Notes: generated from the letters alone by a model not told the origin. DNA of 64,000 nt from a candidate division TM6 bacterium GW2011_GWF2_28_16 (GCA_001029715.1 CP011212.1:398936-462935), one strand, 5' to 3'; positions 37,165 to 60,767 are shown, numbered from the stretch's first letter. Numbers and translations are program-made.

Positions 37165-37270
37165 TTTTATATTCTAGCTTTTCTTTTTAACTAACTCAAG
37201 CAAAAGAATTTTGTTGATGTTATACTTGACGCATTCAAAATCAAAAAATTTAAAAATAGAAAGGTTTTTA

Positions 37271-39487
37271 ATGTCTTTTAGATCTGGTAAGTGGCAAGAA
37301 GAAATTAACACTAGGGATTTTATTTTAAATAATTTTACTCCCTACGATGGCGATAATTCTTTTCTAAAAGGTCCCACCGAAGCGACCAAAGAACTTTGGC
37401 AAAAATCTAGCGAACTTTTACAAAAAGAGATGAAAAATGGTGGTATTTTAGATATTGATACCAAAACCATCTCTTCAATAACCAGCCATAAACCTGGATA
37501 TTTAGATAAGAAAATTGAAAAGATTGTTGGTTTTCAAACAGACGCTCCACTAAAAAGAGCCATGAAGCCTTATGGAGGTATTAGAGTGGTTGAGGCTGCT
37601 TGTGAAGAAAATGGCTACAAAGTTGATCCGGCAGTTTCTGAAATTTTTAATAAATATCGTAAATCTCATAATGATGGTGTTTTTGATGTTTATACTAAAA
37701 CTATGCGTCAACTACGTTCAACTGGTATTTTGACTGGTTTACCAGACAATTATGCTCGTGGCAGAATTATTGGTGATTATCGTCGTGTGGCTTTATATGG
37801 TATCGATCGTTTAGTTGAGGCCAAAAAAGCAGATAAAGAGACTTTGGATGGCGTAATGACTGATGATTTAATCAGACTCCGTGAAGAAATCAGTGAACAA
37901 ATTAAAGCTTTAGGAGAAATGAAGGAAATGGCTCTTAGCTATGGCTTTGATATTTCTAAACCAGCCAAAAATGCTCAAGAAGCCATTCAATGGACTTGGT
38001 TTGGTTTCTTAGCCGCTCTAAAGGAACAAGATGGTGCAGCCATGAGTTTGGGCAATGTCAGTACTTTTTTTGATGTTTATATCGAAAGAGATCTAAAAAA
38101 TGGCAATTTAACTGAAGTTGAGGCTCAAGAATTAGTTGATCATTTCATCATGAAATGTCGTCTCATTCGTCATTTGCGCATGGATGCTTATAATGAGCTT
38201 TTTGCTGGAGATCCAACCTGGATTACGGAAGCAATTGGTGGCTTTTTCTCTAATGGTCAACACAAAATTACCAAGACTAGTTTTAGATTTTTACAAAGTT
38301 TATATAATATTGGTCCAGCTCCAGAGCCAAACTTAACTATTTTATGGTCAGATAAGCTTCCAAAGGGTTTCAAGAAGTTTGCTGCTCAGGTTTCGATTGA
38401 CACTTCTTCACTGCAATATGAAAATGACAGCCTGATGCGTGAGGCAGGCAATTGTGATGATTATTGTATTGCTTGTTGTGTTTCGATGATGGAAACCGGC
38501 AAAGAAATGCAATTTTTTGGAGCACGCTGCAATTTAGCTAAAGCTTTGCTAATGGCTCTTAATGAGGGTCGTGATGAAATCAGTGGTGAGCTAGTGGTGA
38601 CTGGAATTGAAAAAATGCCAGCTGGCCCAATTAAATATGAAGAATTTATTAAGAGATTTAAGCAAACTGTAGCTTATTTAGCTAAAGCTTACGTTAATAC
38701 CATGGACGTCATTCATTATATGCATGACAAATATTATTATGAAAAAGCTCAAATGGCCTTGATGGATACCGAGGTTAAAAGAAATATGGCTTTTGGTATG
38801 GCAGGATTAAGCGTAGTGGCAGATTCTATTTCAGCGATTAAATTTGCCAAAGTTACACCAATTCGCAATGAAGAAGGTTTGACGACTGGTTTTGAGACAG
38901 AAGGTGAATTCCCAATGTATGGCAATGATGATGATCGCGTTGATACAATCGCTCAGAGCTTGGTTAGCGATTTTAATAAAGAATTGGCTAAGCAACACAT
39001 TTATCGTGATGCAACTCCAACTTTGTCGATTTTAACCATCACTTCTAACGTTGTTTATGGCAAGAAAACTGGTTCTACCCCAGACGGACGTAAAAAAGGT
39101 GAACCTTTTGCTCCAGGAGCGAATCCAATGCATGGTCGTGATCATTCAGGTGCAATTGCCTCACTAAATTCAGTGGCCAAGATTGATTATCATGATGCTA
39201 GAGATGGTGTTTCTAACACTTTTTCAATCGTGCCAAAAACCTTAGGTGAAAATAAGGAAACTCAGGTCAACAATCTTTTGGCAATGCTTGATGGTTACTT
39301 TAACAAAAACGCTCATCACCTAAACGTTAATGTTTTGAATCGTGAAACTTTGGAAGATGCTATGAAGCATCCAGAGAAATATCCACAATTAACCATTCGT
39401 GTTTCTGGATATGCGGTTAACTTTGTCAGACTGAGTGAGGCTCATCAACGAGAAGTCATTGCTAGAACCTTTCATGAAAGCATGTAA
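37271..39487 (+). CDS. pflB: Formate C-acetyltransferase (pyruvate formate-lyase)
   Basis: Catalytic CC (IACCVSM) and glycyl-radical motif RVSGYAV near the C-terminus. Start set at ATG 37271 with a GAAAGG SD. Confidence 0.9.
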
Positions 39488-40220
39488 TCTGAAAATCCAT
39501 TCGATTGAAACCTTTGGGACTCATGATGGTCCAGGTATTCGTTTGGTAATTTTTGCACAGGGCTGTCTTTTTCGCTGTCTTTATTGTCACAACCCAGACA
39601 CACAAGCTTTGGAAACTGATAAAACCAAAACGATTAAAATTAAAGAAATTCTTGAACTTTTAGAAAAGCAAAGAACCTATTTTGGCAAAACTGGTGGCTT
39701 AACGATTTCTGGTGGTGAGCCAACACTACAAGCCACTGGGTTAATTGAACTTTTCAAAGAATGCAAAAAAAGAGCTTTTAATACCTGTCTCGATACTTGT
39801 GGAGCAATTTATAGCCGAGAAGTGCAAGAGCTTTATGATTTAGCTGATTTAGTCATGCTTGATGTTAAACACATTGATGATGGCTGGCACCAAAAATTAA
39901 CTGGGATGAGCAATGCTAATACTCTTAAAAACGCTGCTTATCGAGAAAAAACAGGCAAAGAATTGTGGTTGCGCTATGTTTTGGTGCCCGGTTGGACCGA
40001 TCAAGAAGAACATCTGGAAACATGGGCTAAGTATTTTGCAAATTATAAAACTCTTAAAAGAGTAGAATTAATTCCTTATCATAAATTAGGAGTTTTTAAG
40101 TATGAGGCTTTGGGTCGTAAATATGAACTCGATGGAGTTGAGCCCCCGACAAAAACTGAGATTGCTAAAGCAGCAGAAATTTTTATAAAGTATTTAGGTA
40201 ATAAAGTTGTGGTGGTTTAA
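39474..40220 (+). CDS. pflA: Pyruvate formate-lyase activating enzyme (radical SAM)
   Basis: [25 protein letters not shown] (CxxxCxxC). Collinear with the E. coli PflA N-terminus. Overlaps pflB by 14 nt. Confidence 0.9.
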
Positions 40221-40247: not shown

Positions 40248-42335
40248 ATGAATTTTGAAGCCCTTTTTTATCCAAAGTCGATCGCTATTGTTGGTGCATC
40301 TAGTAGAGAGAAAACAGTTGGTAATGACGTGGTTAAAAACCTTGTTAGACAGGGCTATGAGGGTAAAATTTATCCAATTAATCCGAAAATTAATAGGCTC
40401 TATGATTTGAAGGTTTATGAGAGTATTGAAAAAATTGCAGATAAAATTGATTTATTAGTGGTGGCTATTCCAGCTAAATTTGTGGCCGAAGAAATTCGTA
40501 AGTCTGCCGAAAAAGGCACTAAGGCTGTGATTGTTATTTCAGCTGGCTTCAAAGAAGCTGGCAATCTAGAACTAGAAAAAGAACTGGCTGAAACTTGCAA
40601 TGAGCTTGAAATTACCTTAATCGGCCCAAATTGTTTGGGTGCAATTAATGCTGAGCATAGCATGAATGCTTCTTTCGCTGCCATCATGCCACCAGTCGGA
40701 GATGTAGCTTTCTTCTCTCAAAGTGGTGCTCTATGCACTGCAGTTTTGGATTATGCCAAAGATATGGGCATTGGTTTCTCTAAGTTTGTGAGTATTGGCA
40801 ATAAAGCTGCTTTAGATGAGCTAGATTTAATTAAATATTTGCATGAAGATCCAAAAACCAAAGTCATTTGTCTTTATGCCGAATCTCTTGAAAATGCTCC
40901 AGAATTTATCAAGGTTTTACGTGAACTGAATAGAGGGGAAAATCCTAAACCAATTATTGTGCTTAAATCTGGTAAGACTAGTGCTGGTGCTGGAGCAATT
41001 GCTTCACATACTGGTTCTTTAAGCAGTGGAGATAGTGCTTACGAAGCTCTTTTTGCTCAGGCAGGGATTATTCGTGCCAATAGCATCAGCGAACTTTTTG
41101 ATTTAGCTCAGGTTTTTTCGATGAATGAGCTCCAAAAAGTTAAAAAAGTAACTATCATCACTAATGCTGGCGGTCCAGGTGTTTTGACTACTGATGCAGT
41201 TGTAGAGAGTGGTTTGGAAATGGCTGAATTAGATCCTAAGACAGTTGCTAAATTGCATTCTTTTTTACCTGCTGCTGCTAGCACTCACAATCCAGTTGAT
41301 GTTTTGGGTGATGCAGTAGGAGAGGTCTATGAAAAGACAATTAGTGTTTTAGCTAAAGATCCAGGCACCGATGCCATTATTCTTCTTTTGACACCTCAAT
41401 CAATGACTGAGCCAGTTAAAACTGCTGAAGCAGTGGTAAAAATGCGTAAAACTAGCAAAAAACCAGTGGTAGTGAGTTTAATGGGCCGAGCTTTGGTAGC
41501 TGAAGGGGTAGAAGTTTTAAAAGAAAATAAAATTGCTTCAACTACTTTTCCAGAGCCAGCCGCAACAGCTTTGGCCAAATTTGCTAAATTTAGTGAATGG
41601 AGTAAAGAAAAGAATGAGTTAGCTTTAAGTTATGATGATGTTGATAAAGCTAAGGTGGCTACAATTTTCACGGAGGCCAAGAGTAAGGGGCAAACTTCTT
41701 TTCCAGAAGCAGAGGCAATGGAGATCATGAGGGCTTATAAATTTCCGCTAATGAAATCTGCTGTAGTTAAAAATGCCAAAGAAGCTTTAAGAATGATGCA
41801 AGAATTTAATTGCGAAGTGGCAATGAAAATTGTTTCTCCAGATATTTTGCACAAAAGCGATGTTGGCGGAGTTAGTTTGGGGGTTACTGCAGAGACTGTA
41901 GTTACTGAATATCAAGCAATGATAAAAAGAGTTGCGCAAAATAAACCTGAAGCAAAATTAGAGGGTGTTTTATTATTACAAATGGCAAAAAAAGGCACAG
42001 AGTTAATTTTGGGTATTAATAAAAATTCTTTAGGCACAATGCTAATGTTTGGTTTGGGTGGTATTTATGTAGAGATATTTAAAGATGTGAAATTTGCTTT
42101 TGCTCCGCTAACCAGAGCTGATGCTTTAAGTATGATAAATGGTTTACATTGTAGTAAATTATTAGAAGGAGCCAGAGGCGAAAAGGCAGTTGATAAAGAA
42201 AAAATTATTGAAGCTATTGGTCGCTTGTCTCAATTGGTAAATGATTTTCCAGAAATTGTTGAATTAGACATCAACCCTTTATTGGTTAATGCTGAAGGCA
42301 CTAAAGTTTTAGATGCAAGAGTGGTGATTGAATAA
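40248..42335 (+). CDS. Acetate--CoA ligase (ADP-forming), fused alpha/beta subunits
   Basis: N-terminal CoA-binding domain (SIAIVGASSREKTVGN), succinyl-CoA-synthetase-like ligase domain, C-terminal ATP-grasp. 695 aa. Confidence 0.85.
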   Translation: MNFEALFYPKSIAIVGASSREKTVGNDVVKNLVRQGYEGKIYPINPKINRLYDLKVYESIEKIADKIDLLVVAIPAKFVAEEIRKSAEKGTKAVIVISAGFKEAGNLELEKELAETCNELEITLIGPNCLGAINAEHSMNASFAAIMPPVGDVAFFSQSGALCTAVLDYAKDMGIGFSKFVSIGNKAALDELDLIKYLHEDPKTKVICLYAESLENAPEFIKVLRELNRGENPKPIIVLKSGKTSAGAGAIASHTGSLSSGDSAYEALFAQAGIIRANSISELFDLAQVFSMNELQKVKKVTIITNAGGPGVLTTDAVVESGLEMAELDPKTVAKLHSFLPAAASTHNPVDVLGDAVGEVYEKTISVLAKDPGTDAIILLLTPQSMTEPVKTAEAVVKMRKTSKKPVVVSLMGRALVAEGVEVLKENKIASTTFPEPAATALAKFAKFSEWSKEKNELALSYDDVDKAKVATIFTEAKSKGQTSFPEAEAMEIMRAYKFPLMKSAVVKNAKEALRMMQEFNCEVAMKIVSPDILHKSDVGGVSLGVTAETVVTEYQAMIKRVAQNKPEAKLEGVLLLQMAKKGTELILGINKNSLGTMLMFGLGGIYVEIFKDVKFAFAPLTRADALSMINGLHCSKLLEGARGEKAVDKEKIIEAIGRLSQLVNDFPEIVELDINPLLVNAEGTKVLDARVVIE

Positions 42336-42368: not shown

Positions 42369-43499
42369 ATGAAATCAGCTATTTATGCTTTTTCTGGCGA
42401 TCCAATTACCTTCGGTCATCTTGATGTTATTCAGCGTGCAGCAGCAGTTTTTGATCGCTTGGTGGTAGCGATTGGTCTTAATCCTGCTAAAAAATATCTT
42501 TTTTCTCAAGAAAAACGCACTGAAATGGCGCGTAGATCCCTTTTGACTCTTAAAAATGTAGAAGTGAAATCTTTTCAAGGAATGTTGGTGGATTTTGCTT
42601 ATGAAAATAATATTGATGTGATTGTCAAAGGAGTTAGAAGTGCTCAGGATTTTGAGTATGAGCAAAGCTTACACAGCTTAGGTGAAAGCCAGAAACTTGG
42701 AATAGATACTTTTATTCTTTTTGCTAAACCGTCATTGGCACATATTAGTTCAAGCGCGGTCAAAGAAATTCAGCAAGAACAAGGCTTAATTCAAGATTAT
42801 GTGCCAAGCTATGTTAAACAATGCGTCGAAGCCAAGTTGAGTGAGCAATTCATTGTTGGTCTAACTGGTGAGATTGGAGTTGGGAAATCTTATCTTGGGC
42901 AAAAAATGGTAGCTTTGGCTCAAAAAATGGGTTTAGAAGCACATAACATTGAGTTAGATCATTTGTCTTGGCAAATTCAGTCAGATCTTAAAGAAGAAAA
43001 ATATGAAGTAGTCAGAAAAAAAATTATTGATACTTTTGGTGCAGAAATTGCCAATAATGATGGCAGTATTAACCGTAAGATTTTGGGTGAAATTGTTTTT
43101 GCCAATCAAAAAAAATTAGATAAACTCAATGAAATTATGGAGACTCCAATTTTAGTGCGTTTACGTAGAGAGCTAAAAAATAAGAAAGGTTTAATTTTTC
43201 TTAACGCAGCTTTACTAGTTGAGGCACAAATGAGCCAGCTTTCTAATTACAACACGATTTTGCTCGGTGTGGATGAAAAAACTCAGCAAGAGCGACTTCT
43301 AGAAAGAGGATTAAACAAAGAGCAAATTAAAAGAAGATTAAAAAGTCAGTATGATTTTGCTAATAAGAAAAAGAATTTGCAAAAAGAAATTGAGATGAGC
43401 AAGCAAGGTAAACTTTGGACTTTGAATAAGAAAAATGTTACTGGTGAAGAAATGAAAAAACTATTAAATGAGCTTTTGCTTTATTTTGGCATCAATTAG
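42369..43499 (+). CDS. coaDE: Bifunctional phosphopantetheine adenylyltransferase / dephospho-CoA kinase (CoaD-CoaE fusion)
   Basis: N-terminus aligns to PPAT (FSGDPITFGHLD, DFEYE, ISSSAVKE). C-terminus has the DPCK P-loop IVGLTGEIGVGKSY. Confidence 0.8.
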   Translation: MKSAIYAFSGDPITFGHLDVIQRAAAVFDRLVVAIGLNPAKKYLFSQEKRTEMARRSLLTLKNVEVKSFQGMLVDFAYENNIDVIVKGVRSAQDFEYEQSLHSLGESQKLGIDTFILFAKPSLAHISSSAVKEIQQEQGLIQDYVPSYVKQCVEAKLSEQFIVGLTGEIGVGKSYLGQKMVALAQKMGLEAHNIELDHLSWQIQSDLKEEKYEVVRKKIIDTFGAEIANNDGSINRKILGEIVFANQKKLDKLNEIMETPILVRLRRELKNKKGLIFLNAALLVEAQMSQLSNYNTILLGVDEKTQQERLLERGLNKEQIKRRLKSQYDFANKKKNLQKEIEMSKQGKLWTLNKKNVTGEEMKKLLNELLLYFGIN

Positions 43500-44069
43500 A
43501 ACACCTAGCTTGAATCTCACTAAAGAATAAATCGTTACACAGATAAGAAAAATATAAACGGGGAATCCCCAATGAGCAAAAGTCCAAGATTTAATTGTCA
43601 AGAGAGTTATTCCGGCATTAATCATGCCAAAAAGAAAAATTTTGTAGCTTTCTGATTCTGGTTGACGGTAAGATTTAACAACAGTTGGAATAGAAGCAAA
43701 ACCATCAGCCAAAATAGCAAAGAAGATGGCTAAATTCCCTTCACCAGTTAACTGCCAAATAAGAATTGCAAAAAGAGAAATAGAGCCATAGACGTAGTCC
43801 ATTTTATTTAATTTCCAGTATGATTTTTTGTTAACAAAAGAAGCAATGATAATTAAAAGAGGATTAAAGCCAGTCATAAAAGTCATTAATGAAGTTAATC
43901 CAACTCCTTTGTCTATTTCAGCAGCAAAAGCAATCATTGGGGCTAAGGTCCACAAAAACCAACTAACTCGATTAGGCTTAGTTTTGCCTTTGATGGTATC
44001 AATGAGATAAGTAAGACCACCGTAAAAAGATATTAAAGCTCCCAAAATAATAAATTTTTCATCTAGCAT
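43464..44069 (-). CDS. Hypothetical polytopic membrane protein
   Basis: 201 aa with 5-6 TM. Confidence 0.45.
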   Translation of the reverse strand: MLDEKFIILGALISFYGGLTYLIDTIKGKTKPNRVSWFLWTLAPMIAFAAEIDKGVGLTSLMTFMTGFNPLLIIIASFVNKKSYWKLNKMDYVYGSISLFAILIWQLTGEGNLAIFFAILADGFASIPTVVKSYRQPESESYKIFLFGMINAGITLLTIKSWTFAHWGFPVYIFLICVTIYSLVRFKLGVLIDAKIKQKLI

Positions 44070-48818: not shown

Positions 48819-50321
48819 TTATTTAAAATTCTCTTCTTTTATCTCCCAAATCTCTAAACAAGGTGCTCCGTTTGGTCGGCAGAAGCTCTTGAGGAGGTCT
48901 GCTTCGGGGAGTTTCATTTCTAGGCGATGAGAATTAACTATTAATAATTTGTTGTCAAAATCTCTGGCTTTTTGCCAAAACTCAGCGGGAATTTCTCTAA
49001 CTGGTTGACCGATGCCTTCGACGTAAATATTTTCAACGTTTTGATTATGGAGATTGAGCAAGATACCATCTGGGAGAGTGCCAAAATAGCCCTCGGTGGC
49101 GACGGCTACCCTTTGTGTTTCGGCTAGCTCTTGGATATAGGAGACCGATTCTTTGATGCCATGTCCTGAAGCCCAGCTTTCGAGAAACTGTTCTCGATCG
49201 ACTCTGCTTAGTTGTAGCTGATCGACTTTGAAGTAAGATGTGGAGATAAATAAAATCGATGGTAAGATAATTAAAAGCAAAAATAGATACTTGAAGATTT
49301 TCTTGTTGAAATTTTGTAGAGAAATAGTTGCTGAAGCAATAAAAAATAAACTACTGGGTAGGATGTAGCGAGGGTAAATAATTCTTCCGAGCAAAGCCAA
49401 AGGGAAAATAAAAATTAAACCAGATAAAAACAGAACCACTTGTTTACGTCTGGTTTTAGCTGAAAGCGGCAAGGCTAAGAGCAAAATCACTGGTCCCAGA
49501 TAATAAATGAGTTGTTCGTAGAAGAACTGACTGTTTTGCCAAAAAATCGTAAAAATTTCAGTGGACAAAATCACAGAGCGAGGTTGCAAAAAATTCCCTC
49601 CAACAGCAAATAATTGACTGAAAAGCGGTATTATTCTAAAGCTATAAAAAGCCAATCCAGCCAAAAGCAAGCCTACACTAATTTTAATGCTTTTATTAAT
49701 GATTAATTTTAAATTCAATTTTTCTTCAAAAAAAATCGCTAAGTAAAAGACTGGCATGAAGAGAAGAGCTGGGGTTTTACTCATAATGCTTAGTAAGAAA
49801 AAGAAAGCAAAAGGCAAAATTGGCCAGATCTTTTTATTTCTAATTATTAAGAGAGCAAAATAATAAGAAATAATCAGATTGGCAAATAAGAGCCCATCAG
49901 TTAAAGCCATGCGATTATAGAAAAAAGTAAAAGGACTAATAATTGCTAAGAACATGGCCAGATGAGCAGCCTTCTTTTCCTTGATTTTTCTCATGATTAA
50001 GAAAATCATTGAAACACTTACTCCTCCGACTAAAACCGCTAATAACCTAGCCGCGAAAAGCTGGTCAGTAATTAATTTCAAAAAAGGCAACATCAGCCAC
50101 ATCAGTAGAGGGGTTTTACCATCATTCATTGGATAAAAAAGATAGCGATTAAAATCATCAATAATCAGTTGTGACCAGCGAATATAGATTGATTCATCAG
50201 CAAAAACTGGTAAAGAAGTTAAATGAAAAAGATGCAAGGCAAAGTATAAAACAAGCAAAGCTAAAAAGAAAAAAAGAGTTTTATTTTTCACTTCTTCTAT
50301 TAAATAGGAAAAAGGTAGCAC
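48819..50321 (-). CDS. GT-C fold membrane glycosyltransferase (ArnT/PMT-like, GT39/83-like)
   Basis: ~11 TM. First extracytoplasmic loop carries FADESIYIRW (DE motif typical of polyprenol-P-sugar-dependent GT-C enzymes). Confidence 0.65.
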   Translation of the reverse strand: MLPFSYLIEEVKNKTLFFFLALLVLYFALHLFHLTSLPVFADESIYIRWSQLIIDDFNRYLFYPMNDGKTPLLMWLMLPFLKLITDQLFAARLLAVLVGGVSVSMIFLIMRKIKEKKAAHLAMFLAIISPFTFFYNRMALTDGLLFANLIISYYFALLIIRNKKIWPILPFAFFFLLSIMSKTPALLFMPVFYLAIFFEEKLNLKLIINKSIKISVGLLLAGLAFYSFRIIPLFSQLFAVGGNFLQPRSVILSTEIFTIFWQNSQFFYEQLIYYLGPVILLLALPLSAKTRRKQVVLFLSGLIFIFPLALLGRIIYPRYILPSSLFFIASATISLQNFNKKIFKYLFLLLIILPSILFISTSYFKVDQLQLSRVDREQFLESWASGHGIKESVSYIQELAETQRVAVATEGYFGTLPDGILLNLHNQNVENIYVEGIGQPVREIPAEFWQKARDFDNKLLIVNSHRLEMKLPEADLLKSFCRPNGAPCLEIWEIKEENFK

Positions 50322-51471
50322 TAAGCAAGAGGTAGAAGCTAGGGATTAGCCAAGTAATGGCTTTTTGCAGGCTTTCCAAACTACTTGAATCCAAGTGAAA
50401 ACTCATCCAAGGCAGATAGTACATCCAAGGTAAATAGCGTAGCAATGAAGAAAAGGAAAAAACGATTAATAAATTTCTGAGAAATTTATTTTTGATTAAA
50501 GGTAAAAAGATTAGAGACCAAAGTAAATACCAAGGTAAAAACTGTTTGGATCTTTCAGTTAGCAATGGAGCGAACATTGCTAAAGCCATTAAATCGTAGG
50601 TAGGGAATTTGCCTAGTCTTCCTAGCCTATTTTTGAGTGCTAAATAAATTATTAGAGGTAACAAAACAATTGTGGCAAATTTAATAGAAATTGATACAGT
50701 AAGCAAAACAGCAATTAAGATAATCTTGAAAATTTTTTTCTTTTGTAAATTAGTCGCTAGATAAACAGCTAATAAAGCTGGAGCCAGCATCCATAGATCA
50801 TTATGAGCACTGCTGAGAATTTCAATTAAAAGTAATGGATTTAAAAAGAATAAAGCTAATTTAAAATAGTTAGCTTTCTTGAAAAACTTTTCACTAATCA
50901 GCAGAGCTAGAATTAAGGAAAGAAAAGCAAATAGTTTAAAAACGATAAAGGTGGAAAGAAATTTCCCCAGTCCAGCTAGATATGGCAACAGTGACAAAGT
51001 AGTCCAACCATAACCATATGGAGCCGGGGTGTGAATGTTGTTCATGAAACGCAACATCGGATCATTAGGAAAATTAATGGCAGTTTGAACATGTGGATTA
51101 GCCCCATACTCGATGATCATTTTTGCATTAAAAATATAATTAAAAAGATCGTGAGAGAGGGCGTTGTAAGAAAAAATTAGGGGCAAACTGACAATGATTA
51201 GAAACTTCCAAAAATTTTGGCGAACATCAAGTTTTAAGCCATGCCAATTTTTAAGGATAAGCAAATAATTAATGAAGATCAAAGTGATTAGAACGCCATA
51301 GAAAATAGTTCTAAAATTTTGTAATGGTAAAACATGTTGCCAAAGATAAGTTTGAAGAGAAACAAAAAAATTAAGATTCAGCAAAGTCAGATTAGGATCG
51401 GTCAAAACAAAAGAAAAAATCGCAAAAACAACAAATAAAAAAAAATAACTTTTAAGTAAAAAACTTTTCAT
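50281..51471 (-). CDS. Polytopic membrane protein (possible GT-C/mannosyltransferase-like)
   Basis: 396 aa with >=10 TM. Lies within the glycan locus. Confidence 0.45.
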   Translation of the reverse strand: MKSFLLKSYFFLFVVFAIFSFVLTDPNLTLLNLNFFVSLQTYLWQHVLPLQNFRTIFYGVLITLIFINYLLILKNWHGLKLDVRQNFWKFLIIVSLPLIFSYNALSHDLFNYIFNAKMIIEYGANPHVQTAINFPNDPMLRFMNNIHTPAPYGYGWTTLSLLPYLAGLGKFLSTFIVFKLFAFLSLILALLISEKFFKKANYFKLALFFLNPLLLIEILSSAHNDLWMLAPALLAVYLATNLQKKKIFKIILIAVLLTVSISIKFATIVLLPLIIYLALKNRLGRLGKFPTYDLMALAMFAPLLTERSKQFLPWYLLWSLIFLPLIKNKFLRNLLIVFSFSSLLRYLPWMYYLPWMSFHLDSSSLESLQKAITWLIPSFYLLLSATFFLFNRRSEK

Positions 51472-52223
51472 TTTTTTGGATACTTGCCATTTAATTCAGC
51501 CATTCTGATTCGCAAAATATCAGCAAACATCAAAATGGAATCTCTCACCGGACTAACTCTATTACTTTGGAAGTGTTTCCATAAAATTGGTACCTCCTTC
51601 ATTGCAAACCCATATTTTTTAGCTAAATAGAGTAGCTCTACATCAAAGGCACCAGTAAAAGCATCTTGGCGTTCATTTTTACCAGAGTAAATGTATAGAT
51701 TATTAAACAGTTTTTCAGTAGTTCTCTCTGAAAAAAGCTTAAAGCCACACTGACTATCTTGAATGCCGGAAAGAGCCAATAGCTGAACGAGATAGTTAAA
51801 GCCTCTGCCCATCAGATGGCGATAAAAAGGCTCTTTTTCTCTTTTGGCGCCAATTATTTCTCTAGAGCCAAAAATGACTTCATATTCGCTATTATATTTA
51901 AGCAATTTACGAACTTCTCGAAGCGGAGTTGATTGATCAAAATCAGAGAATAAGCGCCAAGCACCATTGGCTTTGAGCATACCAGACTTAACAGTTGGAC
52001 CTTTACCTTTGTGTTGATTCAAAATTAGTTTAATACGCTCATCTTTTCGACTAAATTCTTCTAGAGCTCTGATGGTTCCATCAGTACTACCATCATCAGT
52101 CAGAATTAGCTCCCAAGATTTTTGATAGTCCCTCAGAAATTGGTAAACTTCTTCAAGAATACCACGTCTAATATTTTTCATTTCATTGTAGGAGGGGAGT
52201 ACAACCGACAAATATGGTTTCAT
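51468..52223 (-). CDS. GT2 polyprenol-phosphate sugar synthase-like glycosyltransferase (DPM1/ArnC-like)
   Basis: VVLPSYNE and LILTDDGSTDGT (GT2 DxD region). Confidence 0.8.
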   Translation of the reverse strand: MKPYLSVVLPSYNEMKNIRRGILEEVYQFLRDYQKSWELILTDDGSTDGTIRALEEFSRKDERIKLILNQHKGKGPTVKSGMLKANGAWRLFSDFDQSTPLREVRKLLKYNSEYEVIFGSREIIGAKREKEPFYRHLMGRGFNYLVQLLALSGIQDSQCGFKLFSERTTEKLFNNLYIYSGKNERQDAFTGAFDVELLYLAKKYGFAMKEVPILWKHFQSNRVSPVRDSILMFADILRIRMAELNGKYPKK

Positions 52224-52228
52224 AAAAT

Positions 52229-53773
52229 TTATTTATTATAACTAGTTAAAACACTAATTTCTGGACCATTTTCCATTTGAAAAACTTCGTCAATAGTTCT
52301 ACTTGGAAAAACAACTACTTCATAGAGAGATGTATCGAAAATATCATTTCTAACTTCTTTTTCATCATTAATAATAAAAAGTTTAGTGGCTAATTGATGA
52401 TCTTCAAGTTTGACTATTTTGTTTTCTTTAGTACTTAGAAAATATCGATAACTCATGCCATAAGAATCTTTAGATGGGGAAAAGAGAACAATATTATATT
52501 TTTCATCTTTATTAACTCTTCTATAAATCTCATCGCTAGTTTTACTCATGTCTCCTGGTTTCCAGCCAGCGTCTTTAATTGAATATCTACTTATATTACT
52601 TGAAATAAAAAATGCTAAAAATGGCAAAATAATTGCCAACATTAACCATTTATTTTTAAATTTAGCAAAGAAAAGGCCGTAAAGAATATAAACAAAAGGA
52701 AATAGATAGGCGATGTAGTGTTCATAAACCTCATGCTGGTAAAGACTAATGCCAATTATGCCAGGTAACAAATAAGCTAATAATACGATCTCGCTATCTT
52801 TGATTTTATTTTTATTTTTAACTAAATAAAATACGCTTGAAAGCAAAAGAAGATATAAAAGTGGATAATTTATTTTGTTAGCTGCAAAGCTTGGTTCAAA
52901 AAGAATTTGTGAAGCGCGATTTTTCAGATCGATTGTTACAAATTTAGTAATTGCGCCAAAACCTTCTCGACCCTTTTTTCTTTGTAAGTCAAAGCTCTCT
53001 TCCTTAACTAAAATCTTTGTGAAAGATTTGGCATTTGTGAAGTCATGCTTGTAATCAAAAAGCATGAGGGGAGTTAGAGAAATTATGAAAATAAGAACTG
53101 CTAGCGCAACATGTTTAAAAAACCTTTTTTCTTCGACAAAGAAATGTTTTTTGTTATTTTTAATTTTAGCAATGAGTTGGATTAAGAATACAATTCCTGC
53201 TCCTGATAAAGAGAGCAGAGTTACATAGTGCAATTGAATTAACAGGCTAAAACAAAGTGAAACCAAAAGCCAATATTTTGTATTTTTTTTCCAAGCTAAA
53301 AAAGTGAAATAAAACATCAATAAACTAAAAAATGGGGCGATGTTTGGGTTCCAACTAAAACGGGCAAGATTAACCACGCCGGCCGACAAAGTGAAAAAAA
53401 TTGTCGATATATAAGCAGTTTTTTTGTTAAAAAGTTTTTTAGTAATTTTGAAGAGCAAAAAAACTGTTAGAACACTTAAGCCAGCCACGGCATAAACTGG
53501 CCCAATTGGATTTGGGTAAGACAAGAACAAAAATGGCAACATAAAATAATAATAAAAAGGTCCTAAATACATGTTGCCAATACTAGTTACTGGACCAATA
53601 AAAACAGGATCTTTTTCTTTAAAAATTTGTGAAACTACTAAAGCATCTCTTCCCTGATCTCCTTGAAACATAAAAGTGTTTTTGAGATTAAAGAAACGTA
53701 AGAATATGGCTAAAGCTAAGATAAAAAATAAAAATAAGTATTCTTTTTTTATTTTTCTAATAGAGTCAAACAT
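52229..53773 (-). CDS. GT-C fold membrane glycosyltransferase (ArnT-like), paralog of the partial gene at the window end
   Basis: ~12 TM. QGDQGRDALVVSQIFKEKDPVFIGPVTSIGNMYLGPFYYYFMLPF block is shared with the CDS at 63591+. Start set at MFDSIRK. Confidence 0.6.
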   Translation of the reverse strand: MFDSIRKIKKEYLFLFFILALAIFLRFFNLKNTFMFQGDQGRDALVVSQIFKEKDPVFIGPVTSIGNMYLGPFYYYFMLPFLFLSYPNPIGPVYAVAGLSVLTVFLLFKITKKLFNKKTAYISTIFFTLSAGVVNLARFSWNPNIAPFFSLLMFYFTFLAWKKNTKYWLLVSLCFSLLIQLHYVTLLSLSGAGIVFLIQLIAKIKNNKKHFFVEEKRFFKHVALAVLIFIISLTPLMLFDYKHDFTNAKSFTKILVKEESFDLQRKKGREGFGAITKFVTIDLKNRASQILFEPSFAANKINYPLLYLLLLSSVFYLVKNKNKIKDSEIVLLAYLLPGIIGISLYQHEVYEHYIAYLFPFVYILYGLFFAKFKNKWLMLAIILPFLAFFISSNISRYSIKDAGWKPGDMSKTSDEIYRRVNKDEKYNIVLFSPSKDSYGMSYRYFLSTKENKIVKLEDHQLATKLFIINDEKEVRNDIFDTSLYEVVVFPSRTIDEVFQMENGPEISVLTSYNK

Positions 53774-53777
53774 GGTT

Positions 53778-54950
53778 TTATTTCTTCTTTTTCCAAACAA
53801 AAGTGCTGTAAGCGAAAAAATTCCAGAACATACCAACTAGAATACCCACCACTGCAGATATAACGCCCGTATCAATTATGTAGTTAACAATTGGTAGAGT
53901 AAATACAGGTTTAAGACCAATGGTAGCAGAAGTAAAGTAAGCAATGGCACTCTGAATTAAGATTGAGCCACCAGAAGATAAATTAAAAGTGAGAAAACTC
54001 ATTGGAATCTGACTGGCTTTTAACTTACGATCCTTAAAAGTCCAAAGATTGCTCCAAATAAAATTCGAGACGATAGCTGTTTCAATGGATAAAAAATTAG
54101 CAATCACGAAGCTTTTTTCTGATGAAAATGGTATTCTCCATAAAGATAAGGCGATTAGTTGAACCAAGGCTCCAAACCCTCCAACAATGGCAAATTTCAC
54201 CACTCTCATCTCTAAAATTTCTTTTATTCTAACCTTCATAAGATATAACAAAGTATTTTTGATATACTCTGGCCCTATTTTACTATTACCTACTACTCGA
54301 TCTTTAAATTCAAAAGGCACTTCTGCAATTTTGAAATTTTTACGCAAGGTTTTATGTAAAAAACCTATCTGAAAAGTATAACCTGAAAAACGATCATCAT
54401 GCAATTCATCTTCTATAGATAGGTATACTTCCTTTTTGATTGCTCGAAAGCCTGTCGTCCAATCTCTGATTGAGAAGTCCAGCATCAAAAAATTAATAAA
54501 AGCGTTTCCGACTATGCTTAAAAATTTACGATGTATGCCCCAGTTTTTAGGAATAGAGCCACCCTTAATGTATCTAGATCCTAAAACAAGGTCGTAGCCC
54601 TGATCAATCTTTTTTAAAAAAGCAGGAATTTTTTTAGGATCATGAGAGAGATCGGCATCAAACTCAAAAACTAAGTCTGCTTTTAATTTAGCAAAAGCAT
54701 GATTCATGCCAATCAAATAAGCCCCACCTAAGCCAGATTTTTTTTTATTGATTAATAATTCAAGAAATCTAAACTTTTTTTGTAAACTTTTCACGAGGAT
54801 TGCTGTGCCATCTGGAGAACTATCGTCAACTACTAAGATTTGCATTTGCCAATTTTTAATGCTTTTAAAAATTTCAGCAAGAGACTGGATGGTCTCTGCA
54901 ATATTACCTTTTTCATTATAAGTGGGAATAATGACAACGGCTTTTTTCAT
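53778..54950 (-). CDS. GT2 polyprenol-phosphate sugar synthase fused to a C-terminal GtrA-like 4-TM domain
   Basis: VVIIPTYNE and ILVVDDSSPDGT (GT2). C-terminal KFAIVGGFGALVQL... GtrA-like segment. Confidence 0.75.
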   Translation of the reverse strand: MKKAVVIIPTYNEKGNIAETIQSLAEIFKSIKNWQMQILVVDDSSPDGTAILVKSLQKKFRFLELLINKKKSGLGGAYLIGMNHAFAKLKADLVFEFDADLSHDPKKIPAFLKKIDQGYDLVLGSRYIKGGSIPKNWGIHRKFLSIVGNAFINFLMLDFSIRDWTTGFRAIKKEVYLSIEDELHDDRFSGYTFQIGFLHKTLRKNFKIAEVPFEFKDRVVGNSKIGPEYIKNTLLYLMKVRIKEILEMRVVKFAIVGGFGALVQLIALSLWRIPFSSEKSFVIANFLSIETAIVSNFIWSNLWTFKDRKLKASQIPMSFLTFNLSSGGSILIQSAIAYFTSATIGLKPVFTLPIVNYIIDTGVISAVVGILVGMFWNFFAYSTFVWKKKK

Positions 54951-54951
54951 C

Positions 54952-55929
54952 TTAGTTAGGATTTTTACTTTCAAATTCTATATCTTGCGTCACCATCAAA
55001 GTAACCAATTCTTCAAAACTAACTGAAGGCTCCCACTTAAGAATCTTTTTAGCTTTTTCTGGATTGCCAATTAATAAATCAACTTCGGCTGGACGATCAT
55101 ATTTTTTATTATGTTTAACGTATTTTTGATAATCTCCTAGACCTGCAACTCTGAAAGCAATTTCCAAGAATTCTCTGACACTATGAGTTTCACCAGTAGC
55201 AATCACAAAATCATCGGCTTTATCTTGCTGTAACATTAACCACATGGCTTTGACGTAATCTTTGGCATAGCCCCAATCTCTCTTTGCATCTAAATTGCCC
55301 AACTCAATAAAGTCTTGTTTACCTAGTTTAATGCGAGCCACAGCATTACTAATCTTACGTGTTACGAATTCTAGTCCGCGACGAGGCGATTCATGATTGA
55401 AAAGAATACCAGAAACAGCAAACATATCGTATGATTCTCGATAGTTAACCGTAATCCAATGTCCATAGACTTTGGCTACGCCATAAGGTGAGCGGGGGTA
55501 AAAGGGAGTATTCTCATTTTGAGGAACTTCTCTAACTTTGCCAAACATTTCACTTGAGCTAGCTTGATAGAATTTAGCTTTTGGACAAGCCAATCTCATA
55601 GCATCTAAAACTCTGGTTACGCCAATAGCGGTAAATTCTCCAGTTAAAACCGGCTGCTCCCAAGAAGCTTTAACAAAAGACTGAGCAGCTAAATTATAAA
55701 TTTCATCTGGCTGGATATCTTGCAAAGCAAAAGTTAAAGAATGTTGATCAATTAAATCTCCAGAAATAAGTTCAAGGTTTGGATTGTGAATAATAGATTT
55801 AATGCGATCGAAATTTTGAGTACTAGTGCGACGGGTTAGGCCATAAACTTTATAACCTTTTTCAAGCAAAAGCTCGGCTAAATAAGAACCGTCTTGTCCA
55901 GTAATGCCCGTGATAAAAGCTTTTTTCAT
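54952..55929 (-). CDS. gmd: GDP-mannose 4,6-dehydratase
   Basis: [26 protein letters not shown] plus the Y-x3-K region ([10 protein letters not shown]). The track start is extended; the real start is at MKKAF. Confidence 0.9.
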
Positions 55930-56870
55930 ATGTTTTCTCTCCAATAATTTAAAATTCTTTCTAAAGTTTCTTTTAATTGGTGATTTTGTTGCCAACCTAA
56001 ATTTACAATCTTTTCATTGTCGCAAACAAGGCTATGAAGGTCAACTGGGCGAATTTTATTTGGATCTATTTCAACCTTAATTTCTGCCTTAGCTAAGTTA
56101 ATCAATAAATCTAGAACTTCTCGGATGCTGTGCCCTTGACCAGAACCAATATTATAAACTTCATTGTTTTGACCCTTTTCCATAATTAAGATGTAGGCAT
56201 TAACGACATCTTTAACATCGGAAAAATCTCTAATACTATCAAGATTGCCAACTTTGACGGAATCTGCTTCACCTTTTTCGACTTTAACCACCGCGGCTGC
56301 AAGATCAGCAACGACAAAACCAAGGGTCTGTCTTTCGCCAATATGATTAAAAGGTCTTACTCTAACAATATTAAGTCCTTCGCTTTTGACAAAAGAATAA
56401 GCCATCATATCTTGAATCAATTTAGATAAAGCGTATGGATTATCTGGACCAAGAGTAGCTTTTTCATCAATGGCTTGATCATTGTCATTAGCAGCATAAA
56501 CAAGAGCAGTGCTAACATGAAGTAGTTTGGCTTGTGGAGCGTGAGCCTTAATGGCTTCAAGCAGATTTAGTTGAAGATTGGTGTTCATTTCCAAAATGAA
56601 CTTACGTTTTTCGAAACTATCTCCAACACTTGCTAGTGAGGCTAAATGATAGATTTCATCTGGTTTCACTGCTGCAATTAAATCTTGAGTGGCTTGATAG
56701 TCAGTTAAATTAATTTGGTAAATATTTTTTTCATCGACGAATTGTTTGACAAACTCACCCTCATCTCGATAAGAAGTTAAATGAATGTTTCTTTCACCTC
56801 TTTTATAAAGCTCTTCAACTAAATGCGAGGCTACAAAGCCAGTGCCGCCAGTGATTAAAATAGTTTTCAT
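55926..56870 (-). CDS. NAD-dependent epimerase/dehydratase, probable GDP-4-keto-6-deoxy-D-mannose reductase (Rmd-like) or GDP-fucose synthase
   Basis: [14 protein letters not shown] Rossmann fold and YALSK (Y-x3-K). Adjacent to gmd. Confidence 0.6.
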
Positions 56871-56887
56871 ATTGAATCCATTTTCCT

Positions 56888-58168
56888 TTATCTTTTACCA
56901 ATGCCCAAATATTGATATTGCCAATTTTTAACTCTTTCTGGATTAAATTGATTACGACAGTCAATGAAAGTTTGTTTTTTGTTATTTTTAACTTTAGAAA
57001 AATCAAAACTAATAATCTCTGGCCATTCAACTACTGCCATAATGATGTCAGCATTTTCACAAGCTTCTTCAATCGAGGAAAATTGTTGATGATTGTCGGT
57101 TGCTAGAGGATTATATTTAGCCATTGGATCGTAGCTTCTGACTTTAGCTTTTTTATCGCTTAAAAATGGAATAATTTTTGTCGACGGAGCTTCTCTCATA
57201 TCGTCAGTGTTAGGTTTAAAAGATAAACCCAAGATGGCAATAGTTTTGTCTTTGAAGCCACCCGACTCTTCAGCAAATTTCTTTAGAAGTCTGAAGATGC
57301 GATCTTTATTGATTTCATCAACGCGATTGAGTAAATTACCACTTTCCCCAACAGTGCGTGAATAAGCGGCCAATTCCTTAACATCTTTAGGGAAGCAAGA
57401 ACCCCCATAGCCTAAACCTGGATACCAGTAGTGTTGGCCAATTCTTTTATCGTAACCAATAGCCTTAATGACTTCTTCAATATCAGCGCCATTTTTTTCA
57501 CAAAGATTAGCAACTTCATTAATAAAAGTAATACGAGTAGCCAAATAAGAGTTGGCAGTGTATTTGGCCATTTGTGCCGAAGCGACTTTACAATGAACAA
57601 CTGGAGCTTTAAGCGTTTTGTGCAATTCTTCTAATTTTGTAAAGACGAAGTCATCTTCAGCACCAATGACAATTCTGTCAGGATTAAGAGTGTCAAAAAC
57701 AGCTGAGCCTTCTCTTAAGAATTCTGGTAAAGAAGCACCATAGAATTTAGTTGATATTTTTTCCTTGATGACAGAGATCACTTTTTCTAAAGTTCCTGGA
57801 GGAACAGTTGATTTAATGACTACAATGGCATTTTCTTTAAGATAGGGAGCAAGCGATTCTGCACTAGCTAAGACGTATTTTAAGTCAGCTGTGCCGTCTG
57901 AAGCCGATGGAGTTCCAACAGCGATAATGATGATTTCTGCCTCATTGATGGCTTCTTGATAAGAAGTGGTAAAACGTAATTTTCCTTTAGCTTGCTGTTC
58001 TAGCAATAATTCCTGCAAATCTGGTTCATAGAAAGGCACTTGGCCTTTTTCTAAGAGTTTAATTTTATTTTCATCAATATCTAAACCAATGACTTGGTTT
58101 CCGAAAGAGGCGTAGACTGCAGCTGAGACAACCCCTACGAAACCAGTGCCAATAACTGTTACTTTCAT
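56888..58168 (-). CDS. ugd: UDP-glucose 6-dehydrogenase
   Basis: MKVTVIGTGFVGVVSAA and catalytic GGSCFPKD. Confidence 0.9.
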   Translation of the reverse strand: MKVTVIGTGFVGVVSAAVYASFGNQVIGLDIDENKIKLLEKGQVPFYEPDLQELLLEQQAKGKLRFTTSYQEAINEAEIIIIAVGTPSASDGTADLKYVLASAESLAPYLKENAIVVIKSTVPPGTLEKVISVIKEKISTKFYGASLPEFLREGSAVFDTLNPDRIVIGAEDDFVFTKLEELHKTLKAPVVHCKVASAQMAKYTANSYLATRITFINEVANLCEKNGADIEEVIKAIGYDKRIGQHYWYPGLGYGGSCFPKDVKELAAYSRTVGESGNLLNRVDEINKDRIFRLLKKFAEESGGFKDKTIAILGLSFKPNTDDMREAPSTKIIPFLSDKKAKVRSYDPMAKYNPLATDNHQQFSSIEEACENADIIMAVVEWPEIISFDFSKVKNNKKQTFIDCRNQFNPERVKNWQYQYLGIGKR

Positions 58169-59735: not shown

Positions 59736-59748
59736 GATGAAACCTTTC

Positions 59749-60765: not shown

Positions 60766-60767
60766 AA

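What the first reader, a model, noticed from the sequence alone, without database searches (positions are those of the whole stretch)
42369..43499. CoaD-CoaE gene fusion (PPAT + dephospho-CoA kinase in one polypeptide)
The N-terminal 160 aa align with PPAT (GHLD, DFEYE, ISSS). The C-terminal ~200 aa carry the DPCK P-loop (GLTGEIGVGKSY). The last two CoA-biosynthesis steps are thus fused as in eukaryotic CoA synthase, an arrangement uncommon in bacteria. It sits right after the CoA-dependent PFL/ACD module.
Basis: partly seen in the sequence, partly recalled or inferred. Interest (0 to 1): 0.5.

Follow-up and report, generated by a model that had tools for sequence, protein, structure and literature searches.

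The report
Fused CoaD–CoaE coenzyme A enzyme
One gene in this small-genome Patescibacteria bacterium really does encode the last two enzymes of coenzyme A synthesis as a single protein, placed directly behind CoA-using fermentation genes; the fusion is genuine and half-annotated in public records, but it belongs to a large, already deposited family and is not a surprise.

Summary
Window 42369-43499 (+) is one uninterrupted 376-aa ORF. Residues 4-156 pass the curated bacterial CoaD/PPAT model and residues 162-344 pass the curated dephospho-CoA kinase model. All known catalytic residues of both halves are present and nearly invariant across 262 relatives. The junction has no linker, and its length is fixed across the family. 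The AlphaFold model is confident (pLDDT 91, pTM 0.88).

The exact protein is public (Ca. Pacebacteria GW2011 genomes, AKM81412.1) but NCBI names it only "pantetheine-phosphate adenylyltransferase". The fusion is not an assembly artefact. It occurs in at least 174 species-level genomes and about 300 clusters at 50% identity.

The window belongs to a patescibacterial clade in which an ADP-forming acyl-CoA synthetase always lies directly upstream, often preceded by PFL and its activase. A second clade mixes DPANN archaea with Spirochaetes, Planctomycetota and Fibrobacteres. There the partner is often an uncharacterised HD-fold hydrolase, either fused or translationally coupled.

The domain order matches eukaryotic CoA synthase, but the PPAT half is of the bacterial type, so the fusion arose independently. 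Whether this organism salvages 4'-phosphopantetheine or makes it de novo could not be tested. Interest is modest.

The parts
42369..43499 (+). coaDE: a single 376-aa ORF encoding bifunctional phosphopantetheine adenylyltransferase / dephospho-CoA kinase (stop codon included)
   Evidence: Identical to the public protein P0001 = AKM81412.1 / KKQ10237.1.
42369..42842 (+). CoaD (bacterial-type PPAT) domain, aa 1-158. The T14-x-G16-H17 motif is at 42408-42419 and I126-S127-S128-S129 at 42744-42755.
   Evidence: TIGR01510 155.3 bits. PDB PPATs E = 1e-32. The model superposes on solved PPATs with TM 0.92-0.94 and rmsd 1.5-1.9 A. H17, K41, R90, D94, E98, S127 and S128 are each conserved in at least 258 of 262 relatives.
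42846..43496 (+). CoaE (dephospho-CoA kinase) domain, aa 160-376. The P-loop G164-Y175 is at 42858-42893 and the candidate catalytic Asp197 at 42957-42959.
   Evidence: TIGR00152 89.6 bits and PF01121 81.5 bits. Alignments to the DPCK structures 2if2, 2f6r, 2grj and 1jjv. K173 and D197 are conserved in 262/262, R309 in 251/262 and Q327 in 253/262.
40248..42335 (+). Upstream partner gene: 695-aa fused alpha-beta NDP-forming acyl-CoA synthetase (ACD-like), 33 nt before coaDE
   Evidence: Pfam CoA_binding + Succ_CoA_lig + ATP-grasp_5. NCBIfam best hits fall below substrate-specific cut-offs. It lies directly upstream of coaDE in 34 of 80 species-level loci and in all 5 sampled relatives.
39474..40220 (+). 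Pyruvate formate-lyase activating enzyme (radical SAM); overlaps the PFL 3' end by 14 nt
   Evidence: TIGR02493 279.2 bits, cut-off 231.75; gene call.
37271..39487 (+). Pyruvate formate-lyase (formate C-acetyltransferase), first gene of the co-directional cluster
   Evidence: TIGR01255 1148 bits, cut-off 994.2; gene call. Present upstream of ACD in 19 of the 34 ACD-context loci.

Best explanation
The gene encodes a bifunctional enzyme that finishes coenzyme A synthesis. The N-terminal bacterial-type CoaD domain adenylylates 4'-phosphopantetheine with ATP to give dephospho-CoA and PPi. The C-terminal CoaE domain then phosphorylates the 3'-OH of dephospho-CoA with ATP to give CoA. The two domains are joined rigidly: the last CoaD helix runs directly into the first CoaE strand. 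This keeps the two activities at 1:1 and next to each other. The gene is the last member of a co-directional cluster, PFL - PFL activase - ACD-like acyl-CoA synthetase - CoaDE. The products of that cluster use CoA catalytically to make ATP: pyruvate + CoA gives acetyl-CoA + formate, and acetyl-CoA + ADP + Pi gives acetate + ATP + CoA. CoA supply is therefore genetically tied to its main consumer. What is shown: domain identities, intact catalytic residues, fold, family-wide conservation of the fusion, and the ACD linkage. What is inferred: co-transcription, enzyme activity, and acetate as the ACD substrate. The idea that this ~0.85-Mb-genome organism lacks the upstream pathway and feeds the enzyme with scavenged 4'-phosphopantetheine or pantetheine is also inferred; I rate that last point at about 0.5.
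For: The ORF is uninterrupted. Both halves exceed curated equivalog cut-offs and Pfam gathering scores. PDB sequence matches are to bacterial PPATs for aa 3-158 and to DPCKs for aa 160-341. The alignment to E. coli PPAT maps H18, K42, R88, R91, D95, Y98, E99 and S128-130 onto H17, K41, K87, R90, D94, Y97, E98 and S127-129. The DPCK P-loop and the Asp equivalent to H. influenzae D33 (D197) align. These residues are nearly invariant across 262 family members, and the junction length is fixed: 21 residues between reference positions 145 and 166 in 135 of 142 representatives. AlphaFold gives pLDDT 91.1 and pTM 0.88, with helix 147-158 running into strand 160-167. The N-domain superposes on solved PPATs with TM 0.92-0.94. 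The fusion is conserved in all of the top 120 homologs, nearly all of the top 150 cluster representatives at 50% identity and 174 species-level genomes. ACD lies directly upstream in all 5 relatives sampled and in 34 of 80 species-level loci, with a gap of 28 nt or less in 23 of those 34. No other coaD or coaE copy, PanK, CoaBC or pan gene was seen in the 64-kb window. The PPAT + DPCK-only route as 4'-phosphopantetheine scavenging is an established scheme for reduced genomes (PMC8721197).
Against: There is no biochemical evidence. CoaE homologs without DPCK activity exist (T. kodakarensis TK1334 and TK2192; PMC6650551), and the C-domain is rather divergent (E about 1e-6 to 1e-7 to E. coli CoaE). 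Position 10 is Gly where stand-alone PPATs have Phe. The ACD-like protein falls below every substrate-specific NCBIfam cut-off. The promoter/terminator scan was uninformative, finding fewer sites than in shuffled sequence, so the operon is inferred from spacing only. The salvage inference rests on 64 kb of a roughly 853-kb genome. The same fusion also occurs in large-genome bacteria (a 6.15-Mb Sedimentisphaerales chromosome, Fibrobacter), where it is presumably part of an ordinary complete pathway.
Confidence: 0.88

Rival explanations
1. Assembly or sequencing artefact: two separate genes (coaD, coaE) were merged by a missed stop or frameshift.
For: None found. In principle, single MAG assemblies can carry indels.
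Against: The identical 376-aa protein occurs on at least 20 independent contigs from ENA, JGI, Logan and NCBI. All of the top 120 homologs, at 56-100% identity, are 371-395 aa and carry both domains. The junction length is invariant in 135 of 142 distant representatives. The AlphaFold model shows a continuous helix-to-strand junction modelled with high confidence.
Confidence: 0.01
2. The C-terminal domain is a CoaE-like P-loop kinase with a different substrate, or is inactive, like the T. kodakarensis CoaE homologs. In that case the protein is only a PPAT with an accessory kinase.
For: TK1334 and TK2192, both homologs of bacterial DPCK, lack DPCK activity (PMC6650551). The domain is divergent from E. 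coli CoaE (E about 1e-6). NCBI names the protein as PPAT only.
Against: It scores above the curated DPCK equivalog cut-off (89.6 vs 65.55). The next-best P-loop families reach 20 bits or less. The P-loop Lys, the Asp at the acceptor site and the lid Arg/Gln positions are conserved in 251-262 of 262 members. Fusion to the enzyme that makes the DPCK substrate is itself strong functional evidence; the same logic led to the discovery of the archaeal DPCK.
Confidence: 0.06
3. The fusion is simply the terminal part of a complete de novo CoA pathway in this organism, not a salvage module. The upstream genes (PanK, CoaBC) would lie elsewhere in the genome.
For: Only 64 kb of roughly 853 kb was examined. 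The same fusion family is present in large-genome free-living bacteria, in unremarkable housekeeping contexts.
Against: No upstream CoA gene was found in the window. The genome is very small (853-kb contig). General knowledge holds that Patescibacteria have sparse cofactor biosynthesis; this is from my own knowledge, and I could not find it stated for CoA in the searchable literature.
Confidence: 0.4

Closest known systems
Eukaryotic CoA synthase (COASY, bifunctional PPAT/DPCK)
   Same: The same two reactions in one polypeptide, in the same order (PPAT N-terminal, DPCK C-terminal). The DPCK half is homologous: the mouse CoA synthase chain 2f6r matches aa 160-329 at E = 5e-14.
   Different: The PPAT half here is the bacterial CoaD type (TIGR01510; only bacterial PPATs match). 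COASY's PPAT is of the eukaryotic/archaeal type (established knowledge, recalled from memory). There is no N-terminal targeting or regulatory extension: the PPAT fold starts at residue 3. The linker is essentially zero residues long. The fusion is therefore convergent, not inherited.
Stand-alone bacterial CoaD (E. coli PPAT, 1b6t/6b7a) and CoaE (E. coli 1vhl, H. influenzae 1jjv, Aquifex 2if2)
   Same: Sequence, catalytic residues and fold of each half.
   Different: They are covalently joined. The motif is S-G-D-P where stand-alone PPATs have (S/T)-F-D-P. The DPCK half carries small insertions and a longer C-terminal region. Whether the PPAT homohexamer is retained is unknown.
Archaeal PPAT-arCOG04076 DPCK fusions (Shimosaka et al. 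2019, PMC6650551)
   Same: PPAT fused to the kinase that performs the next step, which makes this another independent occurrence of the same functional fusion.
   Different: Both parts differ in origin: an archaeal-type PPAT, and a GTP-dependent DPCK unrelated to CoaE. Members of the family studied here are found in DPANN archaea, the very group that paper reports as lacking arCOG04076.
Mycoplasma HAD-DPCK fusions (PMC8721197)
   Same: A DPCK in a reduced-genome organism fused to a phosphohydrolase of unknown role. This parallels the HD-hydrolase partner that is fused to, or translationally coupled with, CoaDE in the sister clade.
   Different: The hydrolase is a HAD fold rather than an HD fold and sits N-terminal rather than C-terminal. 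No PPAT is part of the fusion. The window's own protein has no hydrolase module.

Membership tests
Bacterial phosphopantetheine adenylyltransferase (CoaD, TIGR01510 / PF01467) | Score above the curated equivalog cut-off over the full model length | tested here: met
   155.3 bits vs cut-off 103.3; model positions 2-154 of 155.
Bacterial phosphopantetheine adenylyltransferase (CoaD, TIGR01510 / PF01467) | (T/H)xGH nucleotidyltransferase motif with the catalytic His, plus the Lys42, Arg91, Asp95, Glu99 and Ser128-130 equivalents (E. coli numbering) | tested here: met
   T14-F-G16-H17, K41, K87 (Arg88 equivalent; K or R across the family), R90, D94, E98 and S127-S129, read from the alignment to E. 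coli PPAT. Each is conserved in at least 258 of 262 relatives, except S129 (227) and the K/R position.
Bacterial phosphopantetheine adenylyltransferase (CoaD, TIGR01510 / PF01467) | Rossmann-like PPAT fold | tested here: met
   The AlphaFold model matches solved PPATs with TM 0.92-0.94 and rmsd 1.5-1.9 A over about 157 residues.
Bacterial phosphopantetheine adenylyltransferase (CoaD, TIGR01510 / PF01467) | Homohexameric assembly and PPAT activity | not testable with these tools
   Only a monomer was modelled, and no model coordinates were available for docking onto a hexamer.
Dephospho-CoA kinase (CoaE, TIGR00152 / PF01121) | Score above the curated cut-offs | tested here: met
   TIGR00152 89.6 vs 65.55; PF01121 81.5 vs 27.
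Dephospho-CoA kinase (CoaE, TIGR00152 / PF01121) | N-terminal P-loop GxxGxGK(S/T) and the acidic residue after strand 2 (H. influenzae Asp33 equivalent) | tested here: met
   G164-LTGEIGVG-K173-S174. D197 aligns with the second Asp of the 'DAD' motif of 1jjv and with 'DSDH' of mouse CoA synthase. K173 and D197 are conserved in 262/262. The role of Asp33 is recalled from the literature and was not re-read here.
Dephospho-CoA kinase (CoaE, TIGR00152 / PF01121) | Lid-region Arg residues and DPCK activity | tested here: inconclusive
   R309, R313 and R323 are conserved in 244-251 of 262 members and lie in the region that aligns to the lid. The exact residue mapping was not verified structurally, and activity is not testable here.
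Eukaryotic CoA synthase (COASY) | PPAT then DPCK in one chain | tested here: met
Eukaryotic CoA synthase (COASY) | PPAT domain of the eukaryotic/archaeal type, plus an N-terminal extension | tested here: not met
   The N-half matches only the bacterial coaD equivalog and bacterial PPAT structures. No archaeal PPAT model appears at E <= 0.1. The mouse CoA synthase chain matches only via its DPCK part. The protein begins directly with the PPAT fold. It works like COASY but is not a member of that family.
ADP-forming acetyl-CoA synthetase (ACD), for the upstream partner gene | Fused alpha-beta NDP-forming acyl-CoA synthetase architecture | tested here: met
   CoA_binding + Succ_CoA_lig + ATP-grasp_5, 695 aa.
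ADP-forming acetyl-CoA synthetase (ACD), for the upstream partner gene | Score above a substrate-specific equivalog cut-off (acetate) | tested here: not met
   AcCoA-syn-alpha 528 vs 567.15; 4-hydroxybutyrate-CoA ligase 606 vs 1300. Acetate as the substrate is inferred from the adjacent PFL.

The most novel reading that the evidence does not exclude
The bacterial-type CoaDE fusion is a mobile 'CoA-finishing' cassette that has spread between Patescibacteria, DPANN archaea and several anaerobic bacterial phyla. In the ultra-small symbionts it would be the only CoA pathway present, converting scavenged 4'-phosphopantetheine to CoA. That would explain the reported absence of the archaeal DPCK (arCOG04076) from DPANN. 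Its frequent partner is an uncharacterised PDE-like HD hydrolase of the COG4339 type (family name recalled from memory). It is either fused to CoaDE or overlaps its stop codon by 4 nt. This partner would be a phosphodiesterase that generates or recycles the 4'-phosphopantetheine substrate, for example from CoA, dephospho-CoA or carrier-protein prosthetic groups. That would give a first functional lead for that orphan family.
Probability: 0.3. Interest if true: 0.6.

Novelty: new member of a known kind. Interest (0 to 1): 0.3.

Why it matters
The main value is in annotation and metabolic reconstruction. NCBI names this protein and most of its relatives only as PPAT. Automated pathway calls will therefore score dephospho-CoA kinase as missing in many Patescibacteria and DPANN genomes, and will overstate their cofactor dependence by one step.

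The conserved ACD-coaDE pairing shows that in this Microgenomates-type lineage, CoA supply is genetically coupled to the ACD-type acyl-CoA synthetase, an inferred ATP-yielding fermentation step. If the upstream pathway is truly absent, the gene pinpoints what the organism must obtain from its environment or host: 4'-phosphopantetheine or pantetheine.

The wider family offers two further leads. Bacterial-type CoaDE genes in DPANN archaea look like a clear case of inter-domain transfer. The tight genetic link to an orphan HD-fold hydrolase is a testable clue to that protein's function.

Tried and rejected
(1) Frameshift or two-gene artefact: rejected.

(2) Other P-loop kinase families (AAA_18, KAP_NTPase, IstB-like): scores of 20 bits or less against 81.5 for CoaE. 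Rejected.

(3) Search for a second coaD or coaE copy in the window by tblastn with each domain: nothing better than E = 0.66.

(4) Search for PanK, CoaBC, pan genes or AcpS in the window, using gene lists with Pfam assignments: none found. One look-up failed because the ORF start did not match a called gene.

(5) Promoter/terminator scan of 36.8-44.2 kb: fewer sites than in shuffled sequence, so uninformative.

(6) An 'FSGDP' motif as a signature of the fusion clade: rejected. Position 10 is G, A or F across distant members.

(7) Literature search for a described bacterial CoaD-CoaE fusion, or for CoA capacity of CPR/Patescibacteria: six queries found nothing specific.

(9) CoaDE context in Fibrobacter and Sedimentisphaerales: no CoA-related neighbours.

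(10) A genome-wide check of the upstream CoA pathway was not possible, because the tools give at most about 20 kb around a gene.

Full report
**1. What is in the sequence**

Window 42369-43499 (+) is a single ATG-initiated ORF of 376 codons with no internal stop.

Pfam finds CTP_transf_like on aa 11-133 (68.1 bits) and CoaE on aa 162-336 (81.5 bits). The curated NCBIfam equivalogs for bacterial coaD (TIGR01510, 155.3 bits, cut-off 103.3, aa 4-156) and for dephospho-CoA kinase (TIGR00152, 89.6 bits, cut-off 65.55, aa 162-344) are both exceeded.

Against the sequences of solved structures, aa 3-158 match 34 bacterial PPATs (best E = 1.4e-32) and aa 160-341 match 12 dephospho-CoA kinases. These include Aquifex 2if2 (E = 2.9e-15) and the DPCK domain of mouse CoA synthase 2f6r (E = 5.1e-14).

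**2. Are both halves competent?**

The alignment to E. coli PPAT places the window's residues as follows:

| E. coli PPAT | Window protein |
|---|---|
| His18 | H17 |
| Lys42 | K41 |
| Arg88 | K87 |
| Arg91 | R90 |
| Asp95 | D94 |
| Tyr98 | Y97 |
| Glu99 | E98 |
| Ser128-130 | S127-129 |

The alignments of the C-half to DPCK structures place the P-loop G164-S174. They put D197 on the second Asp of the H. influenzae 'DAD' motif and on the 'DSDH' of mouse CoA synthase, and put R309, R313 and Q327 in the lid region.

Across 262 family members collected from two database searches, these positions are essentially invariant:

| Residue | Conserved in (of 262) |
|---|---|
| H17 | 261 |
| K41 | 262 |
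| R90 | 261 |
| D94 | 260 |
| E98 | 258 |
| S128 | 262 |
| K173 | 262 |
| D197 | 262 |
| R309 | 251 |
| Q327 | 253 |

An AlphaFold2 model built on 68 homologs is confident (mean pLDDT 91.1, pTM 0.88). It shows the last CoaD helix (147-158) running straight into the first CoaE strand (160-167). The N-domain superposes on solved PPATs with TM 0.92-0.94 and rmsd 1.5-1.9 A, and no solved chain covers both domains.

The stretch spanning the junction has the same length (21 residues between reference positions 145 and 166) in 135 of 142 distant representatives. This argues for a rigid, conserved two-domain unit and not a loose tether.

**3. Not an artefact, and not rare**

The identical protein lies on at least 20 independent contigs. 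It is public as AKM81412.1, KKQ10237.1, KKQ88803.1 and HAZ73257.1 from 'Candidatus Pacebacteria bacterium GW2011_...', with a longest contig of 853 kb. There it is named only 'pantetheine-phosphate adenylyltransferase'. JGI sometimes names relatives 'pantetheine-phosphate adenylyltransferase/dephospho-CoA kinase'.

All 120 best homologs (56-100% identity, 371-395 aa) carry both Pfam domains. An exhaustive HMMER pass over 1.84 billion cluster representatives gave 314 hits at E <= 1e-30. Nearly all of the best 150 (34-56% identity) span both domains. A scan of one genome per GTDB species found 174 loci that encode a relative, and the best 80 were kept.

**4. Gene context here and in relatives**

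In the window the gene order on the + strand is as follows:

- PFL, 37271-39487 (TIGR01255 1148 bits, cut-off 994).
- PFL activase, 39474-40220 (TIGR02493 279 bits, cut-off 232).
- After a 27-nt gap, a 695-aa NDP-forming acyl-CoA synthetase, 40248-42335.
- After a 33-nt gap, coaDE.

The synthetase has the ACD architecture but falls below the substrate-specific cut-offs, so acetate as its substrate is inferred from the adjacent PFL.

The ACD-coaDE adjacency holds in relatives at 80, 75, 66 and 61% identity and in 34 of the 80 species-level loci. The gap is 28 nt or less in 23 of those 34. PFL and its activase are present in only 19 of the 34.

Consensus promoter and terminator scans were uninformative, so co-transcription is inferred from spacing and conservation. 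No second coaD or coaE, PanK, CoaBC or pan gene occurs anywhere in the 64-kb window.

**5. The wider family**

A neighbour-joining tree of the 80 species-level proteins plus the window splits into two groups. It has no support values, so it is indicative only.

- Clade A contains the window. It consists only of patescibacterial records (Pace-/Woesebacteria, Microgenomatus, Paceibacterota, plus MAGs with doubtful placeholder titles), all with ACD upstream apart from one outlying short contig (L086).
- Clade B interleaves DPANN archaea (Woese-, Pace-, Nano-, Aenigm-, Micrarchaeota, Nanohaloarchaea) with Spirochaetales, Sedimentisphaerales/Phycisphaerae/Pirellulales, Fibrobacter, Clostridiales, Thermodesulfobacteriota and Dojkabacteria. 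These are 50-59% identical to the window protein.

I checked one archaeal locus. L036 encodes a TyrRS that passes the PRK08560 model (383.7 bits, cut-off 220) and fails the bacterial tyrS model. I recall PRK08560 as the archaeal-type model, and this fits an archaeal contig. The other archaeal labels rest on the record titles of many independent MAG studies.

Shimosaka et al. (PMC6650551) report that the archaeal DPCK (arCOG04076) is missing from Nanoarchaeota and other DPANN. A bacterial-type CoaDE in those lineages would fill that gap. That reading is mine and is untested.

**6. A recurrent third partner, not present in this window**

About 32 of the 142 distant representatives are 560-660 aa long. 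The extra C-terminal module of roughly 210 aa has no Pfam or NCBIfam match. It carries H...HD-type motifs, and JGI labels a stand-alone homolog 'predicted metal-dependent HD superfamily phosphohydrolase'.

Among the 80 species-level loci, the module is fused in 4 and is a separate gene immediately downstream in 18. In 15 of those 18, its start codon overlaps the coaDE stop by 4 nt (ATGA or GTGA).

The ACD context and the HD context did not co-occur in this sample. The window has no copy of the module. Mycoplasma HAD-DPCK fusions of unknown role are a loose parallel (PMC8721197).

**7. Mechanism and its rivals**

The best-supported reading is a bifunctional enzyme that catalyses two steps:

- 4'-phosphopantetheine + ATP gives dephospho-CoA + PPi.
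- Dephospho-CoA + ATP gives CoA + ADP.

It is expressed together with an acyl-CoA synthetase, and here also with PFL, which recycle CoA to make ATP. My confidence in the bifunctional assignment is about 0.88.

Where the 4'-phosphopantetheine comes from is open. The small genome and the absence of upstream genes in the window favour scavenging, which is route 3 of the scheme in PMC8721197. However, only 64 kb was visible, and the same fusion occurs in large-genome bacteria in ordinary contexts. I rate salvage at about 0.5.

A non-DPCK C-domain (about 0.06) is kept alive only by the precedent of inactive CoaE homologs in Thermococcus. An assembly artefact is excluded.

**8. Comparison with known systems and novelty**

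The protein works like eukaryotic CoA synthase and has the same domain order. Its PPAT half is the bacterial CoaD type, and it lacks any N-terminal extension, so it is a functional analogue produced by an independent fusion, not a COASY family member. A further independent PPAT-DPCK fusion, built from different parts, exists in archaea.

I found no paper describing the bacterial-type fusion. The sequences are nevertheless deposited, and some pipelines already label them as bifunctional. I therefore class it as a new member of a known kind.

**9. Verdict and score**

The finding is correct and useful for annotation and for reconstructing the metabolism of ultra-small prokaryotes, but it would not surprise a specialist. 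Interest: 0.3.

The most novel reading the evidence does not exclude is a horizontally mobile CoA-finishing cassette shared by CPR and DPANN, with an orphan PDE-like HD hydrolase as its substrate-supplying partner. I give it a probability of about 0.3 and an interest of about 0.6 if true.

Noticed in passing
[not shown]
   Followed up: partly
L032-L040, L047-L049, L052-L058, L063, L065, L067, L072-L073, L076-L077, L079, L087: Bacterial-type CoaD-CoaE fusions occur in many DPANN archaeal MAGs and are 51-59% identical to the patescibacterial protein. Published work reports the archaeal DPCK family as missing from exactly these lineages. This suggests inter-domain transfer. Only one locus (L036) was checked for an archaeal marker (TyrRS).
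   Followed up: partly
window 43464-44069 (-): A 201-aa multi-pass membrane ORF with no Pfam or NCBIfam family converges on coaDE and overlaps its 3' end by 36 nt. It is conserved only in close relatives (about 74% CoaDE identity or higher). Its function is unknown. A transporter role is possible but untested.
   Followed up: partly
P0195 and 3-6 other representatives: Trp appears at otherwise invariant Gly positions (e.g. 'FSWDPITYWH', 'ITWAIG'). This is the signature of UGA=Gly (code 25, Gracilibacteria/Absconditabacteria) genes translated with a UGA=Trp table. Those recoded lineages therefore carry the fusion too, and their database translations are wrong at those codons.
   Followed up: no
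L010, L011, L013, L020, L023, L025-L027, L029 and others (TPA_asm 'binchicken'/SRP co-assembly MAGs): Record titles read 'uncultured Pseudomonadales bacterium' or 'uncultured Methanosarcinales archaeon'. The loci themselves have 30-39% GC and the patescibacterial PFL-ACD-CoaDE-ExoIII gene order (or a DPANN-like context). The titles look like placeholder or erroneous taxonomy.
   Followed up: no
window 37211-39487 and 39435-40220: The longest-ORF starts (TTG 37211 for PFL, GTG 39435 for the activase) differ from the public gene calls (ATG 37271, 738 aa; 39474, 248 aa). With the called starts, the activase overlaps the PFL stop by 14 nt.
   Followed up: partly
window 48819-63594: A large cell-envelope glycosylation cluster: several PMT_2 and MptA/B-like glycosyltransferases, a GT2-GtrA fusion, GDP-mannose 4,6-dehydratase-like and RmlD-like enzymes, UDP-glucose dehydrogenase, a LytR-CpsA-Psr protein and a polysaccharide flippase.
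   Followed up: no
window 17780-19996 (-) and 16768-17640 (-): A 738-aa ORF and an ORF of 284-290 aa with no Pfam family on record lie next to a P-type cation ATPase. They were not examined further.
   Followed up: no
L036 8634-9015 and L038 9108-9580: Three tandem tRNA-Ala genes with different anticodons (TGC, AGC, CGC) lie about 0.9-1.4 kb downstream of the CoaDE-HD pair in two related archaeal contigs.
   Followed up: no
L053 (labelled Woesearchaeota, maxbin bin, 411-kb contig): The neighbours of CoaDE are a bacterial-type solute-binding protein and a Cache-HAMP sensor, which looks more bacterial than archaeal. The taxonomic label of this contig may be unreliable.
   Followed up: no
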